Origin: an uncultured Gemmatimonadales bacterium
GTDB lineage: Bacteria; Gemmatimonadota; Gemmatimonadetes; Longimicrobiales; Gaopeijiaceae
Length of the DNA stretch: 64,000 bases
Direction of reading: 5' to 3'
Assembly (NCBI GenBank): GCA_963809895.1
Contig: CAWELD010000003.1
Span: forward strand, 736,001 to 800,000
Position 1 is the first letter of the stretch; the number at the start of each line of letters is the position of its first letter. The notes under the pieces are model-generated. The model did no database searches. It was given only the letters and a program-made list of their open reading frames with translations, and was not told the DNA's origin. The position numbers and the translations under genes are program-made. This document shows positions 36,136 to 46,121 of this stretch, piece after piece.

Positions 36136-37050
36136 ATGAGCGCCGTGGCCCCCCGTCCCACCGTCGTCCTCCTGGTCGACGGTGACCACCAGCGTGCCCG
36201 AGCCCTGGCCCGGGAGCTGGAGGAGGGGCTCGGCGACCGTGGTCCAGCGCTCCGGCTCGAGCACGCGTCGGAGCTCCAGACCGCCCTGGAGCGTCTCTCT
36301 CGGGGCGGGGTGGACGTGGTCCTCCTCGATATCTTGCTGCCCGACAGCCAGGGGTTGGTTACCTTTGAACAGGCGTACGCCTTCGCGCCGGACGTGCCGT
36401 TCGTCGTGTTCACGGACGTCGACGACGAGACGACCGCCGTGGCGGCCGTGCAGGCCGGTGCGCAGGACTACCTGGTTCGGTCGGAGATCGATGCCCGGGG
36501 TCTGCTACGCTCCATCCGCTATTCGATCGAGCGCCATCGGCTTCTCATGGCGCTCAAGAGCCTCTCTCTCATCGACGATCTGACGGGACTCTACAACCGT
36601 AGGGGGTTCATGGAGCTGGGAACGCAGTTCCTGAAGCTGTTGCGGAGATCCGGGCGGGGCGCCACGCTGCTCTACCTCGATCTGGACCGCTTCAAGCGCA
36701 TCAACGACGCTCACGGGCACCACGTGGGCGACCGCGCGCTCATTCACGTTGCCGAGATTCTGCGCGCCGCGTTCCGGCGCTCGGACCTGATCGCGCGCGT
36801 GGGTGGCGACGAATTCGCCGTGCTGGCGCCGGCGACTTCCAGCGAGCCGGCGGAGATGCTGGACCGCCGGGTCCGCGAGGGCCTGGCTTCATTCAACAAC
36901 TCGGCGGTCGACGCCTACCGACTCGATGCCAGCCTGGGATTGGCGCGCGCCGAGCCCGGTGAGAGATTCCGCCTCGAAGATGTCCTGGCCGCTGCGGATG
37001 CTGCCATGTACGAAGAGAAGCGAACCAAACGCAAGGTGGTGGCTCGGTGA
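36136..37050 (+). CDS. Response regulator diguanylate cyclase (REC-GGDEF)
   Basis: REC with VVLLDILLPD; DDLTGLYNRR, DLDRFKRIND, RRSD I-site, intact GGDEF. Confidence 0.93.
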   Translation: MSAVAPRPTVVLLVDGDHQRARALARELEEGLGDRGPALRLEHASELQTALERLSRGGVDVVLLDILLPDSQGLVTFEQAYAFAPDVPFVVFTDVDDETTAVAAVQAGAQDYLVRSEIDARGLLRSIRYSIERHRLLMALKSLSLIDDLTGLYNRRGFMELGTQFLKLLRRSGRGATLLYLDLDRFKRINDAHGHHVGDRALIHVAEILRAAFRRSDLIARVGGDEFAVLAPATSSEPAEMLDRRVREGLASFNNSAVDAYRLDASLGLARAEPGERFRLEDVLAAADAAMYEEKRTKRKVVAR

Positions 37051-39179
37051 CGCAGGACGTGACCCAGTCCGGAACGGAGCGGCGTCCGCGGGCGGTCCAC
37101 TGGTTGGTCCGCATCGTCGAGCGCGCCGGCATGGACGGTGGGGCCCGGATCGATCTCCGGCCGGGCACGCCCATCCTCGAGGCGTGGAAGACCGTCACGC
37201 GGGCCTATCAGGTCTCGGAGGCGGACCTCGCCGAGCTGGTGGCCAAGTACTATCGCCTCGAGGTGGCCGACCTGACAGCGGCGCAGACCGGGGCCGCCAA
37301 CCTCATCTCCGAGGCCATGGCCCGGAAGCACCACATCCTTCCGGTGCGGGAGGACGAGCGTCATCTGGTGGTGGCGACGTGCGATCCCACCGACGTGGAG
37401 ACCGAACGCGCCGTGGGTTTCTCCACCGGCAAGAGCGTGGTCTTCCAGGTCGCCTCGCCCTCGGCCATCGGCGATACCATCGACGGCATGTTCGCGCCGG
37501 GTCGCGCCGGCGCCGTGGAGGCCATCCTCGGCTCCCTGGACATGGATGTCGAGGATCTGGACCTGGTGCGTGCGGTAGAGGAGCGCGGGCCGGAGAGCGT
37601 CTCCGAGGACGATGCCGGGGCGACCCCGGTGATCCGTCTGACCAATCTCATCATCACCGAGGCGGTCAATCAGGGAGCCAGCGACATCCACATCGAGCCG
37701 GGGCGCTCCACGGGCACCGTGCGCTACCGGGTGGACGGCGTGCTCCGTAAGCACATGGATCTTCCGATGCCCGCCATGAACCGGGTGGTGTCGCGCATCA
37801 AGATCCTCTCCCGCCTCGACATCGCGGACCGGATTCGGCCCCAGGACGGGAAGGTGCGCGTCAAAGTACGCGACGCGTACTACGACCTCCGGGTGTCGAC
37901 CATCCCGGCGGCGGGCTCCGAGAAGTGCGTGATCCGTATTCTGGACTCCAACACGTCGGTCACGCTCGAGGACCTGGATCTGCCCGAGTTGGAGCTCCAG
38001 CGGATGCGGGAGCTCCTGACGCACCGGTCGGGCGTGGTGGTGGTCACCGGACCCACCGGATCCGGAAAGACCACGACCTTGTACGGAGCGCTACGGGAGA
38101 TCGCGGACGGGAAGGTCAACATCATGACCGTCGAGGATCCCGTGGAGTACGATCTGCCCTCCATCACCCAGACCCAGGTGGAGCCGAAGCAGGGCGTGAC
38201 CTTCGGGTCGGCGTTGCGGGCGATCCTGCGCCAGGACCCCGACGTCATCCTGGTGGGTGAGATCCGGGACAAGGAGACAGCCGAGGTGGCGGCGCAGGCG
38301 GCCATGACGGGCCACCTGGTTCTGGCCACCGTCCACGCCAACGACGCGGTCAGCGCCGTGGGCCGGTTGGCGGACATCGGGCTGGCGTTTCCCCTCATCG
38401 CGCAGACCCTGCGTGGCGCGTTCGCGCAGCGGCTTCTGCGCAAGGTCTGCACGGCGTGCGCCGAGCCCGTGCGGGGTGCTCTGACCCCCGACGAGCAGCG
38501 CCTCATGGACCGCCACGGCGCCGAGCCCATGGTGCGCGCCGTGGGGTGCGCGGAGTGTGGCTTCACCGGCTACCGGGGCCGGCTGCCCGTGGTCGAGGTC
38601 CTGCACGTCGGGCCTCGTTTTCAGACGGCCATCGAGCAGCACAAGGGGTGGGCGACACTCACCCGGGTGGCGATGGAGGCGGGCATGCGTCCCATGCACG
38701 ACGTCGCCCTGGAGTGGGTGCGACTGGGTCGCACCACGCTGGTCGAGGTCGAGCGCATCCTGGGGCAGGTGGTGGACGAGGAGCCCGAAGAGAAGGATTC
38801 CGGGCCGCCCCGAATCCTGGTCATGGAAGACGACGCCGATGCGCGACTCCTGCTCCGCACTGTCCTCACCAAGGAAGGCTACGACGTCGTCGACGCCAAG
38901 AACGGGCAGGAGGGCATGGAGATCCTGCGCGAGGATCCCGATTTCGCCTTGGTGATCCTCGACCTGGTCATGCCCGGCATGTCCGGTCGGGAAGTGCTGG
39001 CCGAGATCCGCTCCATGGTGGACACCATGGCCCTTCCCGTGCTGGTGCGTACCGGTGCGGGGTCGGAAGAGGACGAGGCCGAGCTCCTCGACGCCGGTGC
39101 CGACGAATACGTGACCAAGGCCACCGACCCCACGCGCTTCCTGGCCCGGGTCCGGGCCGTCCTGCGTCGCGCGGTGTAG
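37047..39179 (+). CDS. PilB/GspE-family secretion ATPase fused to a C-terminal receiver domain
   Basis: ASDIHIEP, GPTGSGKTT, TVEDPVEY, LRQDPDVILVGEIRD, CTAC/CAEC zinc motif; REC ILVMEDD..ILDLVMPGMSG..YVTK. Confidence 0.92.
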   Translation: MTQDVTQSGTERRPRAVHWLVRIVERAGMDGGARIDLRPGTPILEAWKTVTRAYQVSEADLAELVAKYYRLEVADLTAAQTGAANLISEAMARKHHILPVREDERHLVVATCDPTDVETERAVGFSTGKSVVFQVASPSAIGDTIDGMFAPGRAGAVEAILGSLDMDVEDLDLVRAVEERGPESVSEDDAGATPVIRLTNLIITEAVNQGASDIHIEPGRSTGTVRYRVDGVLRKHMDLPMPAMNRVVSRIKILSRLDIADRIRPQDGKVRVKVRDAYYDLRVSTIPAAGSEKCVIRILDSNTSVTLEDLDLPELELQRMRELLTHRSGVVVVTGPTGSGKTTTLYGALREIADGKVNIMTVEDPVEYDLPSITQTQVEPKQGVTFGSALRAILRQDPDVILVGEIRDKETAEVAAQAAMTGHLVLATVHANDAVSAVGRLADIGLAFPLIAQTLRGAFAQRLLRKVCTACAEPVRGALTPDEQRLMDRHGAEPMVRAVGCAECGFTGYRGRLPVVEVLHVGPRFQTAIEQHKGWATLTRVAMEAGMRPMHDVALEWVRLGRTTLVEVERILGQVVDEEPEEKDSGPPRILVMEDDADARLLLRTVLTKEGYDVVDAKNGQEGMEILREDPDFALVILDLVMPGMSGREVLAEIRSMVDTMALPVLVRTGAGSEEDEAELLDAGADEYVTKATDPTRFLARVRAVLRRAV

Positions 39180-39205
39180 GTACCCCCCGTCGTAAGCCAC
39201 GTCGG

Positions 39206-39331
39206 CGTAACAGCTCCGTAACGAACAGGGCTCATGTAACGCATGGGCCCTGTTGGTCGTTACACGCTCGACTAGTTTCTTCGCGGTTCGACAGGACGAA
39301 ACGCGGAGAACTCGTTACGGAGACGGTTATG
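39206..39331 (+). ncRNA. Candidate cis-regulatory structured leader upstream of the porin
   Basis: 13-bp stem 39224-39236/39242-39254; second stem 39277-39290/39297-39310; perfect 11-bp complement 39214-39224/39312-39322 covering the SD. Confidence 0.45.
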
Positions 39332-40390
39332 ACTCGATGGGGCCTGGCCGCTGTGGCGGCCCTCACCATGTGTTCGGCGAAGCTGAGTGCCCAGGATCTC
39401 ACGGTCATGGGGCGCGCAGCGACCTTCACCTTCGGCGGGCGCCTGCACCTGCAGTACTCCTACAGCTCGCCCGACGGGGCCGAGCCGGCAGACGTCTTCG
39501 TTCGACGGGCTCGCTTCATCACCGAGATCAAGGTGAGCGACTTCCTGGATGCCCGGGTCCAGCCCGATTTCGCGGGAGGCAAGGTCGCGCTGCAGGACGC
39601 CTGGGTCCGCTTCACCGTGAGCCCGGCATTCCGACTGTCCGCGGGGCAGTTCCAGCGTGCGCACGAGATCTTCGAGCGCACGAGCTCCACCGAGCTGTCG
39701 GTCATCGAGCGCGACGGCCGGGTCTCCGGGGTCGACGACTGCGCGGGCACGGGCGGGGTGTGCAGCCTCGGCCGCCTCGTGCACAAGCTGGACTACGCCG
39801 GCCGTGACGTGGGCCTGCGGCTCGAGGGCAAGCTGGGAGGCCGTCTCAGCTACAACGCCACCCTGACGAACGGGACGGGGGTCAACGTGCCGGACGAGAA
39901 CGACGCCAAGTCCGCCTCGGCTCGCGTTACGTACGCCGTGGGCGACGGCGTCGCGCTGTCCGGATACTACGGGGTCCACGACTACGAGCGCACCCGGCCC
40001 GACGACTCCATCGAAACCGACTTCGGCCACGCCGGCGGCGTCGACCTGGAGGTGGGGGACTTCATGGAGGGCTTCCACTTCATGGCCGGCGTGGTCCAGG
40101 GCGACAACTGGAAGGCGGGACCGAGCGCCACCTTCCGTGCCGCCCAGGCCATAGCCACCTGGTACCGGCCCGTGGCGTCGTCGCGCTTCGCGGCCTGGGA
40201 GCCGGTGCTGCGGGTCGGGTGGGCCGATCCCGACACCGACGGCGTGGACGACGAGGCGCTCCTCGTCACACCCGGACTCATGGTCTACGTCCTGGGGCGC
40301 AATCGCGTGGGCGCCAATGTCGACGTCTACAGCCCGGCGGTGGGCGACACCTCCTGGTCCCTCAAGGTCCAGACGTACCTCTACTTCTGA
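39329..40390 (+). CDS. OprO/OprP-like (phosphate-selective) porin
   Basis: Signal peptide; FVRRARF, QPDFAGG..LQDAWV, AGQFQ, GRDVG, NGTG..DENDAK; C-terminal F. Confidence 0.75.
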   Translation: MTRWGLAAVAALTMCSAKLSAQDLTVMGRAATFTFGGRLHLQYSYSSPDGAEPADVFVRRARFITEIKVSDFLDARVQPDFAGGKVALQDAWVRFTVSPAFRLSAGQFQRAHEIFERTSSTELSVIERDGRVSGVDDCAGTGGVCSLGRLVHKLDYAGRDVGLRLEGKLGGRLSYNATLTNGTGVNVPDENDAKSASARVTYAVGDGVALSGYYGVHDYERTRPDDSIETDFGHAGGVDLEVGDFMEGFHFMAGVVQGDNWKAGPSATFRAAQAIATWYRPVASSRFAAWEPVLRVGWADPDTDGVDDEALLVTPGLMVYVLGRNRVGANVDVYSPAVGDTSWSLKVQTYLYF

Positions 40391-44074: not shown

Positions 44075-44154
44075 TCCGCCCGGAAAGCAGCGGCGCTCGA
44101 ATACAGCGAGACTCTTGCGCCACCACACTTGACGTCTGACGGGAGGGAGTGGCC

Positions 44155-44830
44155 ATGCGCACATTCTTCGAGTTGTTCGCTCGCTCGCCCTTCGCTCCGC
44201 TGGTCAAGCACGGGGAGAAGGTCAACGAGGTTCTGCACGAGCTTACGCCCTCTGTTCGCCGCATTCACCGGCGGCGACGTGGAGGGCGTTGAGGAGTGCC
44301 ATGAGCGTATCTCGCACCTCGAGCACCAGGCCGACGACATCAAGCAGGAGATTCGAGCCAATCTCCCGCGCTCCCTCTTCCTTCCGGTGGATCGTGGCGA
44401 CCTGCTGAAGTTCCTCAAGGAGCAGGATTCCATCGCCGACGCCGTCGAGGATGTGGCGGTCCTCATGAGCATGCGCGCCACGCCCACGCCGGAGGGGATG
44501 CAGGCTCGTGTCGATGCCCTGGTGGATCAGATCCTGGTCGCGGGCCAGACCTGGTTCGAGATCGTTCAGCTCCTGCCGGGGCTTCAGGAGTCCTCCTTCA
44601 CGGGACCGGAGGTGAAGAAGGTCCTCGACCTCATCGATCGCGTGCACTCCGAGGAGTGGGAGGCCGACCTGCGCCAGGCGGCCCTGGGCAAGGCCACCGT
44701 CAGGTACGAGGAGGAGCTGGGCGCCGTGGGAGTCCTGTTCTGGATGAGGATCGGATCGAAGCTGGGCGAGGTGGCGAACCGCGCCGAGAACGCCGGTGAT
44801 CTCCTGCGCCTGATGCTCGCGCGAAGCTGA
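44155..44830 (+). CDS. DUF47/PhoU-like phosphate transport regulator, frameshifted near 44244
   Basis: ATG 44155 gives MRTFFELFARSPFAPLVKH; continues in the next frame with LEHQADDIKQEIRANLPRSLFLPVDRGD; directly upstream of pit. Confidence 0.85.
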
Positions 44831-44861
44831 CCCTTCTCCTCGACACCTCCGAGCCTGCCTC

Positions 44862-46121
44862 ATGGAGATCCTGGTCGTCCTCGCCATCGGTACAGGCTTC
44901 TACATGGCCTGGAACATCGGTGCCAACGACGTGGCGAACGCCATGGGCACGTCGGTGGGGTCCGGGGCCCTCACCCTCAAGCGCGCGATCCTCGTGGCCG
45001 GCGTCTTCGAATTCGGGGGCGCCGTTCTGGTCGGGGGGCACGTCACGGAGACCATCCGCAAGGGGATTCTGGATCCGTTGGCGTACGCTCCCACCGGCGC
45101 CTTCGGGGCCGATGGCCCGCTGCTGCTGGCGCTGGGGATGGCGTGCGCGCTCCTGGCCGCCGCCCTCTGGCTCCAGGCCTCCACCGCGTTCGGTCTGCCG
45201 GTGTCGACGACCCACTCCATCGTCGGTGCCGTGGTGGGCTTCGGGCTGGTCTCGGTGGGTGCGGGCGGTGTCGACTGGGGCAAGCTCGGGCAGATCGTGG
45301 CCAGCTGGGTGGTATCGCCGGTGCTCGGCGGTGTGCTGGGATTCCTCACCTTCATCGTCGTGCGAAGATTGGTGCTTCACCGCGACGACCCCATCGATGC
45401 CACCGTGAAGATCGCGCCCTACATCGTGGGCGTGGTGGCCTCGATCCTGGCGCTCACCTTCGTCTACAAGGCGCTCAAGAACGTGCTGCCGGATCCCCAT
45501 CCCACCGTGGTGGGGCTCACCGTGCTCGGTGTGGGCGGCGCGAGCATTCTGGTGGCGCGGGCGGTGATCCGGCCCGACGCCGTCGCCCGCACCGGGAATC
45601 CCTTCACCTACGTGGAGTCCGTCTTCGGCAGCCTGCAGATCGTGACCGCGGCATTCGTCGCCTTCGCCCACGGCGCCAATGACGTGGCCAACGCCGTGGG
45701 CCCGCTGGCGGCGGTGGTGGGCATCGCGTCCGTGGGCTTCCGCGAGATTCCCAGCGCGATCCCGGTGCCGGTCTGGATGCTGGCCGCCGGCGGACTGGGC
45801 ATCGTCGTCGGGCTCGCCACCTGGGGCTACCGCGTCATCGCCACCATCGGCCAACACATCACGGAGCTCACGCCCACCCGCGGATTCTCAGCCGAGTTCG
45901 GCGCCGCGTGCACCGTGCTGGTGGCGAGCCGTCTGGGCCTGCCCGTGAGCACCACGCACGTGCTGGTGGGCGCCGTCATCGGTGTCGGGTTCGCCCATGG
46001 ACTCGGCGCGCTCAACCTCCGCACGCTCCGCAATATCGTCGGGTCGTGGCTGGCCACGGTGCCGGCGGCGGCGGCCGTGAGCGCCGGATTGTTCGTGGCG
46101 TTGCGCGCCTTCGTGCTCTGA
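44862..46121 (+). CDS. pit: Inorganic phosphate transporter, PiT family
   Basis: GANDVANA twice, PVSTTH twice. Confidence 0.95.
   Translation: MEILVVLAIGTGFYMAWNIGANDVANAMGTSVGSGALTLKRAILVAGVFEFGGAVLVGGHVTETIRKGILDPLAYAPTGAFGADGPLLLALGMACALLAAALWLQASTAFGLPVSTTHSIVGAVVGFGLVSVGAGGVDWGKLGQIVASWVVSPVLGGVLGFLTFIVVRRLVLHRDDPIDATVKIAPYIVGVVASILALTFVYKALKNVLPDPHPTVVGLTVLGVGGASILVARAVIRPDAVARTGNPFTYVESVFGSLQIVTAAFVAFAHGANDVANAVGPLAAVVGIASVGFREIPSAIPVPVWMLAAGGLGIVVGLATWGYRVIATIGQHITELTPTRGFSAEFGAACTVLVASRLGLPVSTTHVLVGAVIGVGFAHGLGALNLRTLRNIVGSWLATVPAAAAVSAGLFVALRAFVL

What the first reader, a model, noticed from the sequence alone, without database searches (positions are those of the whole stretch)
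39206..39331. Candidate undescribed RNA switch controlling a porin ribosome-binding site
Seen: CTCCGTAACGA (39214-39224) is the perfect complement of TCGTTACGGAG (39312-39322), which contains the SD GGAG; weaker pairing extends over the ATG at 39329. The same strand can instead pair with TCGTTAC (39257-39263), extending the 13-bp hairpin AACAGGGCTCATG/CATGGGCCCTGTT and freeing the SD. A third stem (TTCTTCGCG/CGCGGAGAA plus TTCG/CGAA) completes a three-way junction, and most stem deviations are G-U wobbles. I do not recognise it as a known riboswitch. Inferred: a translational on/off element. Its place behind a diguanylate cyclase operon and before a phosphate-type porin suggests a nucleotide or phosphate signal, which is speculative.
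Basis: partly seen in the sequence, partly recalled or inferred. Interest (0 to 1): 0.75.

Follow-up and report, generated by a model that had tools for sequence, protein, structure and literature searches.

The report
Phosphate-starvation promoter with ribosome-site lock
The stretch before this bacterium's phosphate pore gene looks like an ordinary phosphate-starvation promoter, not a small-molecule riboswitch; in this one species it also folds so that long RNAs arriving from the upstream genes would hide the ribosome site, while RNA started at the promoter would not.

Summary
The pairings are real and the fold is far beyond chance (z -7.05), but it is a four-way junction. The proposed alternative pairing leaves the SD paired. 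The 'anti-SD' strand is a Pho-box-like DNA site, GTAAC-N6-GTAAC (39207-39222). A matrix trained on pstS leaders of other genomes ranks it 2nd in this genome, above the genome's own pstS box. The 11-bp repeat occurs in 30 of 63 orthologous porin leaders (shuffles 0.2). The RNA fold is not conserved: orthologue median z about -0.1, 0 of 149 family genomes match its model, and the closest orthologue breaks three helices. A candidate -10 (TAGTTT, 39273) puts the start near 39285, downstream of the anti-SD. Opening the ribosome site costs about 4 kcal/mol in that short RNA and 13-16 in read-through RNA. Best reading: a PhoB-type promoter plus a species-specific fold-back lock on read-through RNA, like T4 gene e; no ligand is needed. 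Start site, PhoB binding and the lock are inferred, not shown. The scan's earlier notes held nothing on this leader.

The parts
37047..39179 (+). Upstream gene: GspE/PilB-type ATPase (MshEN + T2SSE) with C-terminal receiver domain; possible source of read-through RNA; no terminator-like site found after it
   Evidence: terminator scan found 0 sites in 38800-39500
39204..39225 (-). Pho-box-like site: two 11-bp units, half-sites GTAAC at 39207 and 39218 (GTTAC-N6-GTTAC on the - strand); a degenerate third unit GCCAC at 39196
   Evidence: rank 2 in G000 with a matrix from pstS leaders of other genomes
39214..39224 (+). 5' strand of helix P1 in long RNA (anti-SD); the same bases form one Pho-box unit in DNA
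39225..39253 (+). Helix P2, 13-bp hairpin with a third half-site GTAAC (39236-39240) at its tip; species-specific
   Evidence: 6 of 12 aligned pairs broken in G005
39254..39274 (+).
39273..39278 (+). Candidate -10 element TAGTTT (TATCTT at the matching place in G005); implies a start near 39285; weak -35 CTGTTG at 39250-39255 (inferred)
   Evidence: only TAnnnT within 80 nt after the box; offset 50 versus 48-51 (or +/-11) in relatives
39277..39310 (+). Helix P4 (9 + 3 bp); its 5' strand overlaps the predicted start, so it can form only in long RNA
   Evidence: 6 of 9 pairs broken in G005
39312..39331 (+). Ribosome-binding region: half-site GTTAC 39314-39318 fused to SD GGAG 39319-39322, ATG 39329; 3' strand of P1
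39329..40390 (+). OprO/OprP-family outer-membrane porin, 353 aa
   Evidence: PF07396 above cut-off, 52 of 52 aligned members; beta-barrel model pLDDT 94.8; TM(query) 0.69-0.72 to OprP/OprO

Best explanation
The intergenic region is first a PhoB-type (phosphate-starvation) promoter for an OprO/OprP-family porin. It carries an upstream reversed Pho box (39207-39222), a promoter-proximal half-site (39259) and a -10 at 39273, so transcription should start near 39285. That short RNA lacks the anti-SD strand and has an accessible ribosome site. In this species the same DNA also encodes a four-way fold. The half-site GTNAC is pseudo-palindromic, so the reversed Pho box pairs with the half-site fused to the SD, and three extra helices bring the two together. 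RNA polymerase running through from the unterminated GGDEF/GspE genes would therefore make an RNA whose porin ribosome site is locked. The on/off decision is made by where transcription starts (PhoB~P on DNA), not by a ligand on the RNA. Shown computationally: motif, spacing, rank, fold and opening energies. Inferred: PhoB binding, activation, the start site, read-through, and that the lock is used. Confidence in the promoter part alone is about 0.85; the figure given is for promoter plus functional lock.
For: Densest GTTAC/GTAAC cluster in the genome: the only 150-bp stretch with 5. The same repeat precedes this genome's pstS, next to phoR/phoB-like genes and phoU. A matrix from 29 sites in 20 pstS leaders of other genomes ranks the box 2nd in G000; 1st precedes a PAP2 phosphatase, 3rd is pstS. 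GTNAC-N6-GTNAC occurs in 30 of 63 orthologue leaders, 23 of 41 after clustering at 75% identity; shuffles mean 0.2, max 2; coding control 0 of 64; spacing peaks at 11, 22 and 33. The closest orthologue G005 (60% aa) keeps the half-sites and their spacing but not helices P2-P4. A -10-like hexamer lies at matching offsets in 10 of 13 leaders with this box; shuffles mean 1.2, max 6 of 2000 (rule set). Opening SD-to-ATG costs 13.0-16.4 kcal/mol with 5' ends at 39100-39200 and 2.5-5.6 with 5' ends at 39270-39300. The long-minus-short gap is 12.9 here versus median 0.7 and max 6.2 in 63 orthologues. The fold survives holding the half-sites fixed (z -5.5), so it is more than a by-product of them. No terminator-like site follows the upstream gene. 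Precedent: T4 gene e (PMC3014915, passages).
Against: No start-site, binding or read-through data. The lock is seen in one species only, with no covariation. G005 and about a dozen relatives with the same gene order manage without it. The proximal half-site is 9 bp, not the usual 10, from the -10 and has no partner 11 bp away; the strong box is in reverse orientation. In several relatives a half-site overlaps the likely -10, so PhoB could repress rather than activate. The best PhoB-like protein scores below the TIGR02154 cut-off (243 versus 296 bits). The matrix was seeded with GTTAC, a word first noticed in the porin leaders. The sigma-70 scan found no consensus promoter. The minus strand and DNA parameters also give strong folds (z -5.9 to -8.5), so the signal is not strictly RNA- or strand-specific.
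Confidence: 0.55

Rival explanations
1. Ordinary Pho promoter; the fold has no role in controlling translation. It arose in this lineage from self-complementary half-sites plus local inverted-repeat perfection (template switching, recalled mechanism), or P2 serves only as a weak terminator or 3'-end stabiliser of the upstream mRNA, so long RNAs never reach the SD.
For: The fold is absent from all orthologues examined. P1's conserved core is the Pho half-site, and half-sites within 40 nt of the start occur in 17 of 63 orthologues without any such fold. P2 is a G+C-rich hairpin 45 nt after the stop, followed by a weak U-rich run. Both strands fold well.
Against: Four adjoining helices close almost without linkers exactly on the SD and ATG. 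z stays -5.5 with half-sites fixed, and 3 of 400 such shuffles lock the site as hard. The + strand folds 14 kcal/mol better than the - strand. P2 fails the terminator scan.
Confidence: 0.3
2. One reading: a ligand- or protein-triggered RNA switch in a long leader (phosphate, PPi, c-di-GMP, ppGpp, an sRNA or a protein) that toggles between SD-locked and SD-free folds.
For: Two alternative pairings exist. During transcription the extended hairpin is the most stable form until 39316 and flips only when 39317-39322 is made, so a kinetic window exists. In G005, 9 of 11 P1 positions can still pair, one through a change on both sides.
Against: The alternative leaves the SD paired; the gap to an SD-free state is 16.5 kcal/mol. 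Junction linkers are 0-2 nt with no conserved unpaired bases. No Rfam match, no homologue in 149 family genomes or 65 orthologue loci. P1 is not predicted to form in G005 (p <= 0.003). Blocking the 5' strand still leaves 8.1 kcal/mol of occlusion.
Confidence: 0.07
3. The structure is a relic of a small inverted-repeat mobile element, or acts as DNA (cruciform), overlaid on the promoter.
For: The ends are imperfect inverted repeats. A MITE-like family is active in this genus, one copy sits at the same site in G005, and the strongest-folding sampled leader in G000 is such a copy. The DNA fold has z -8.5.
Against: Single copy in the genome, no likeness to that MITE family, no target-site duplication seen, and the region is colinear with G005's promoter with the same spacing, so it is not an insertion.
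Confidence: 0.08

Closest known systems
PhoB/Pho-box promoters of the Pho regulon (E. coli phoE, phoB, phoA; porins and pst genes as core members)
   Same: Tandem 11-bp units before a phosphate-type porin and pstS (PMC4447250 and PMC12351708, passages seen); extra half-sites near or past the -10, as for the E. coli phoB auto-repression site on the antisense strand (PMC6194859, passages).
   Different: The half-site here is GTTAC/GTCAC/GTGAC rather than E. coli TGTCA(T); the strongest box is reversed and about 50 bp before the -10; binding untested.
Phage T4 gene e (also soc, 49, I-TevI) start-site-dependent translational silencing
   Same: Long upstream-initiated RNAs fold over the SD/AUG; an internal promoter inside the 5' strand gives a short, translatable RNA (PMC3014915, passages: about 100-fold reduction for gene e).
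   Different: Here the host gene is a bacterial porin, the internal promoter is a transcription-factor site, the anti-SD is itself the binding-site repeat, and the fold is a four-way junction. Not conserved among relatives, unlike gene e leaders in close T4 phages.
IS10/IS50 fold-back inhibition of read-through transcripts (recalled; one search found no paper holding all five search terms)
   Same: Protects a gene from translation off RNA that starts outside its own promoter.
   Different: No transposase or mobile element here.
Translational riboswitches (c-di-GMP-I/II, yybP-ykoY four-way junction and the other Rfam families)
   Same: An SD-sequestering helix in a multi-helix junction before a transport gene.
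   Different: No Rfam match, no conserved aptamer, no balanced alternative state.

Membership tests
Riboswitch (any Rfam family) | Match to a curated covariance model | tested here: not met
   E up to 10: two chance hits, both outside the element
Riboswitch (new class) | Structure conserved with covariation across relatives | tested here: not met
   median z -0.125 over 64 leaders including the window's; model hits 0 of 149 genomes and no full-length hit in 65 other loci; G005 breaks P2, P3, P4. Caveat: no relative between 60% and 97% identity was available
Riboswitch (new class) | Two near-balanced, mutually exclusive folds, one freeing the SD | tested here: not met
   SD-free fold +16.5 kcal/mol; named alternative keeps GGAG paired
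Riboswitch (new class) | Ligand binding changes the structure | not testable with these tools
   needs probing
RNA thermometer | SD helix melts in the physiological range | tested here: not met
   SD unpaired probability <= 0.05 up to 60 C
Pho-regulon (PhoB-type) promoter | Tandem half-sites at 11-bp spacing | tested here: met
   39207/39218; family spacing peaks 11, 22, 33
Pho-regulon (PhoB-type) promoter | Same motif before pstS and other phosphate genes; cognate regulator present | tested here: met
   PhoB-like regulator and sensor kinase directly before pstS, best family TIGR02154 but below its cut-off
Pho-regulon (PhoB-type) promoter | Half-site 10 (+11n) bp before a -10 element | tested here: inconclusive
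   9 bp here, 10 bp in G005, lone half-site; reversed box at offset 50 as in relatives
Pho-regulon (PhoB-type) promoter | PhoB~P binding and induction by phosphate starvation | not testable with these tools
   no raw-read RNA run available
Start-site-dependent RBS occlusion (T4 gene e type) | RBS locked in long RNA, open in short RNA | tested here: met
   computed only: 13.0-16.4 versus 2.5-5.6 kcal/mol
Start-site-dependent RBS occlusion (T4 gene e type) | Both long and short transcripts exist in vivo | tested here: inconclusive
   only assembled contigs of one RNA run, which cannot show ends
MITE / REP-type repeat | Multiple copies, terminal repeats with target duplication | tested here: not met
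   single copy; colinear with G005
Intrinsic terminator | Hairpin followed by a U-rich run | tested here: not met
   0 sites in 38800-39500; hairpins without a U run are not covered by that scan
OprO/OprP porin (downstream gene) | PF07396 domain and porin barrel fold | tested here: met
   phosphate selectivity itself not tested

The most novel reading that the evidence does not exclude
A transcription-factor binding site doing double duty: the Pho box is read as DNA by PhoB and, in read-through RNA, as the anti-SD strand that pairs with a matching half-site fused to the SD. Pseudo-palindromic operator repeats would thus be ready raw material for evolving translational insulators, so that a porin embedded behind an unterminated operon is made only from its PhoB-driven transcript. 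The fixed four-way junction in this species would be a recently perfected case.
Probability: 0.35. Interest if true: 0.55.

Novelty: new variant of a known kind. Interest (0 to 1): 0.3.

Why it matters
It removes a false riboswitch candidate and explains why such candidates arise: palindrome-like operator half-sites generate convincing 'alternative pairings'. It also yields a usable Pho-box model for Gemmatimonadota (consensus TCCGTTACAGT repeated); the full-text search for Gemmatimonad + pho box + PhoB returned 0 papers. If the lock works, it is a compact natural example of a DNA operator reused as an RNA anti-SD, testable with a two-promoter reporter.

Tried and rejected
Rfam at E <= 10 and at gathering score on 7 other loci: nothing. 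DNA search of 300 family genomes with the leader and flanks: listed matches fall almost all in the coding flanks; three short ones (21-38 nt, E 0.002-0.004) touch the intergenic part and were treated as chance; 9 matches were not listed. RNA run X8 has a contig starting at 39288, close to the predicted start, and none listed over 39130-39287, but a DNA contig (X6) also starts at 39269, it is one study, and contigs cannot show ends: no evidence. A strain contig (X1) has 0 of 10 substitutions inside 39184-39343; P = 0.15, not significant. The idea that this species lost a terminator kept in G005 was dropped: G005's hairpin-plus-T6 is the end of a MITE-like insertion. An antisense promoter from the reversed box: by reading the sequence, no -10 at the usual distances on the - strand. 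Small upstream ORFs (ATG-TAA at 39234; 10 codons at 39243) lie inside P2 and are not kept in G005. Thermometer: rejected. Single-sequence porin model was poor (pLDDT 35); the alignment-based one was used. Sequence searches of the PDB found no hit. Genome and metagenome pattern scans gave only distant (30-53%) or near-identical porins, so covariation among close relatives could not be tested. Earlier-findings look-ups by words and by sequence returned nothing.

Full report
Setting. The window is G000:C3:736001-800000; named relatives of the porin are Gemmatimonadota. The finding lies in the 149-bp gap between a GspE/PilB-type ATPase with a receiver domain (37047-39179), itself behind a REC-GGDEF gene, and a 353-aa protein of Pfam Porin_O_P (39329-40390). 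All 52 aligned members hit that family. An alignment-based model is a confident beta-barrel (pLDDT 94.8) whose highest query-normalised TM-scores among the listed matches are with OprO and OprP (0.69-0.72), although general porins score nearly as well. pstS or a phoB-like gene lies within the fetched locus in 26 of 64 orthologue loci.

Observation. The listed complementarities are all present. 39200-39345 folds to -75.7 kcal/mol, z -7.05; 2 of 562 sampled leaders of this genome (of 1256 crudely called) reach z <= -6. Rfam has no match and the element is single-copy. Pairing 39218-39224 with 39257-39263 costs 8.1 kcal/mol and leaves CTCC 39214-39217 paired to GGAG and the ATG paired. A state with 39317-39331 open is 16.5 kcal/mol above the minimum.

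What is conserved is a DNA repeat. I took the porin loci returned: 68 loci. These are the best hits only; 205 of 313 family genomes have the gene. I dropped two without a usable start, one with 45 nt of leader, one near-identical copy and the window itself, leaving 63 (starts picked by script, some may be off). GTNAC-N6-GTNAC occurs in 30 of 63, and 23 of 41 after clustering at 75% protein identity. Shuffles give 0.2 on average (max 2 of 200), a coding control gives 0, and half-site spacings peak at 11 (40 pairs), 22 (14) and 33 (11). The window has five such half-sites (39207, 39218, 39236, 39259, 39314), the only 150-bp stretch of the genome with five GTTAC/GTAAC. The same repeat precedes this genome's pstS, which follows a PhoB-like regulator and a sensor kinase and precedes phoU, and many pstS genes of relatives. 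A 22-bp matrix built from 29 sites in 20 of 28 pstS leaders of other genomes ranks the window's box (minus strand, 39225-39204) second in G000, after a site before a PAP2 phosphatase and ahead of the pstS box. The matrix was seeded on GTTAC, so it is not fully independent. Two tandem 11-bp units are the definition of the PhoB site, and porins and pst genes are core members of the regulon (PMC4447250, passages; PMC12351708, passages). Because GTNAC is palindromic except for its middle base, any GTAAC can pair with any GTTAC, which explains the 'alternative' pairing.

The fold is not conserved. Over the same span the median z of 64 leaders (the window's included) is -0.125; the next lowest after the window (-6.65) is -4.15, in a leader that looks like upstream coding sequence. 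A covariance model of the element, built from this one sequence and so of limited reach, finds 0 of 149 family genomes and no full-length match in 65 other porin loci. The closest orthologue, G005 (60% aa, same gene order), keeps the half-sites, their spacing and CGTTACGGAG, but breaks 6 of 12 pairs in P2, 3 of 6 in P3 and 6 of 9 in P4. P1 can still pair at 9 of 11 positions, one through a change on both sides, yet is not predicted to form (p <= 0.003). Half-sites within 40 nt of the start codon occur in 17 of 63 orthologues and in this genome's pstS leader; weak extra PhoB sites that repress are known (PMC6194859, passages). No relative between 60% and about 97% identity was found, so covariation in a narrow clade is untested.

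Where transcription probably starts. The only TAnnnT within 80 nt after the box is TAGTTT at 39273-39278, 50 bp after the box and 9 bp after the half-site at 39259; G005 has TATCTT at 51 and 10 bp. A -10-like hexamer at 38-40, 48-51 or 59-61 bp is found in 10 of 13 leaders with this box, window included; shuffles give 1.2, max 6. That rule was set after seeing the data. The implied start is near 39285, downstream of the anti-SD and inside the 5' strand of P4. The consensus promoter scan found nothing. This step is inference.

Why the fold still needs an explanation. Holding the five half-sites, the SD and the start region fixed and shuffling the rest, the fold remains at z -5.5, and 3 of 400 shuffles lock the ribosome site as hard. 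Opening SD-to-ATG costs 13.0-16.4 kcal/mol for 5' ends at 39100-39200, 7.6-13.3 for 39215-39250, and 2.5-5.6 for 39270-39300. The gap between long and short leaders is 12.9 kcal/mol here, against a median of 0.7 and a maximum of 6.2 in 63 orthologues. No terminator-like site separates the genes. The simplest functional reading is the T4 gene e arrangement: long RNAs fold over the ribosome site, and RNAs from a promoter inside the 5' strand do not (PMC3014915, passages). Against it: relatives with the same gene order lack the lock, both strands and DNA parameters fold well, and no transcript data exist (one search holds contigs only).

Mechanism, ranked. (a) PhoB-type promoter plus a lock on read-through RNA, 0.55. 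(b) The same promoter with a fold that does not control translation, 0.30. (c) Mobile-element relic or DNA structure, 0.08. (d) Ligand- or protein-triggered RNA switch, 0.07. Whether PhoB activates, represses or does both here is not settled; activation is assumed from the known regulon.

Novelty. Pho-box control of a phosphate porin is textbook, and start-site-dependent occlusion is known from T4. I found no paper holding Gemmatimonad, pho box and PhoB together, and the listings (titles and abstract openings only) showed none describing a Pho box that doubles as an anti-SD; the library lacks most subscription journals, and I read no supplements. The combination is a modest variant seen in one species. 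One count touches an unpublished genome: the porin lies directly before pstS in 9 of the 29 other pstS loci, one of them G056 (8 of 28 without it). The two earlier scan notes returned concern the upstream ATPase only.

Noticed in passing
L008 (G005), - strand about 2863-2692; G000 copies e.g. C3:476779-476916, C3:958783-959091: MITE-like element with about 25-bp terminal inverted repeats and a duplicated CTAG, inserted just after the GspE stop in G005; 29 matches in G005 and 33 in G000 (pieces, not copy numbers; full copies about 305 bp). Its end mimics a terminator.
   Followed up: partly
G000 C3:2269245-2272996 (L110, L140, L154): phoB-like, phoR-like, pstS, pst permeases and phoU cluster; the pstS leader has four half-sites at 11-bp spacing, TATGCT as -10 candidate and a further half-site before the SD.
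   Followed up: yes
G000 C3:2309495-2310115 (L153): Top-scoring Pho-box-like site, between a PAP2 phosphatase and a divergent 231-aa ORF without Pfam match; candidate Pho-regulon members.
   Followed up: partly
G000 C10:1145824 (L152): GTTAC-N6-GTTAC before a 395-aa ORF (rank 14 with the matrix); not identified.
   Followed up: no
window 36136-39179: REC-GGDEF gene overlapping a GspE/PilB ATPase that carries MshEN and a C-terminal receiver domain; the ATPase precedes the porin in about 14 of the loci examined.
   Followed up: partly
window 44129-46121: DUF47 (PhoU_div) plus PHO4/PiT phosphate transporter 4 kb downstream, without an exact GTNAC-N6-GTNAC box in front by the scan.
   Followed up: partly
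L032 (G020), L099 and L087: L032 has a different long stem running from its predicted start to the start codon; L087 and L099 lie in tandem porin pairs, each leader with Pho-box-like repeats.
   Followed up: no
window 38456-40390: The porin reading frame is open for 709 codons, far into the upstream gene in another frame; probably a high-G+C artefact.
   Followed up: no
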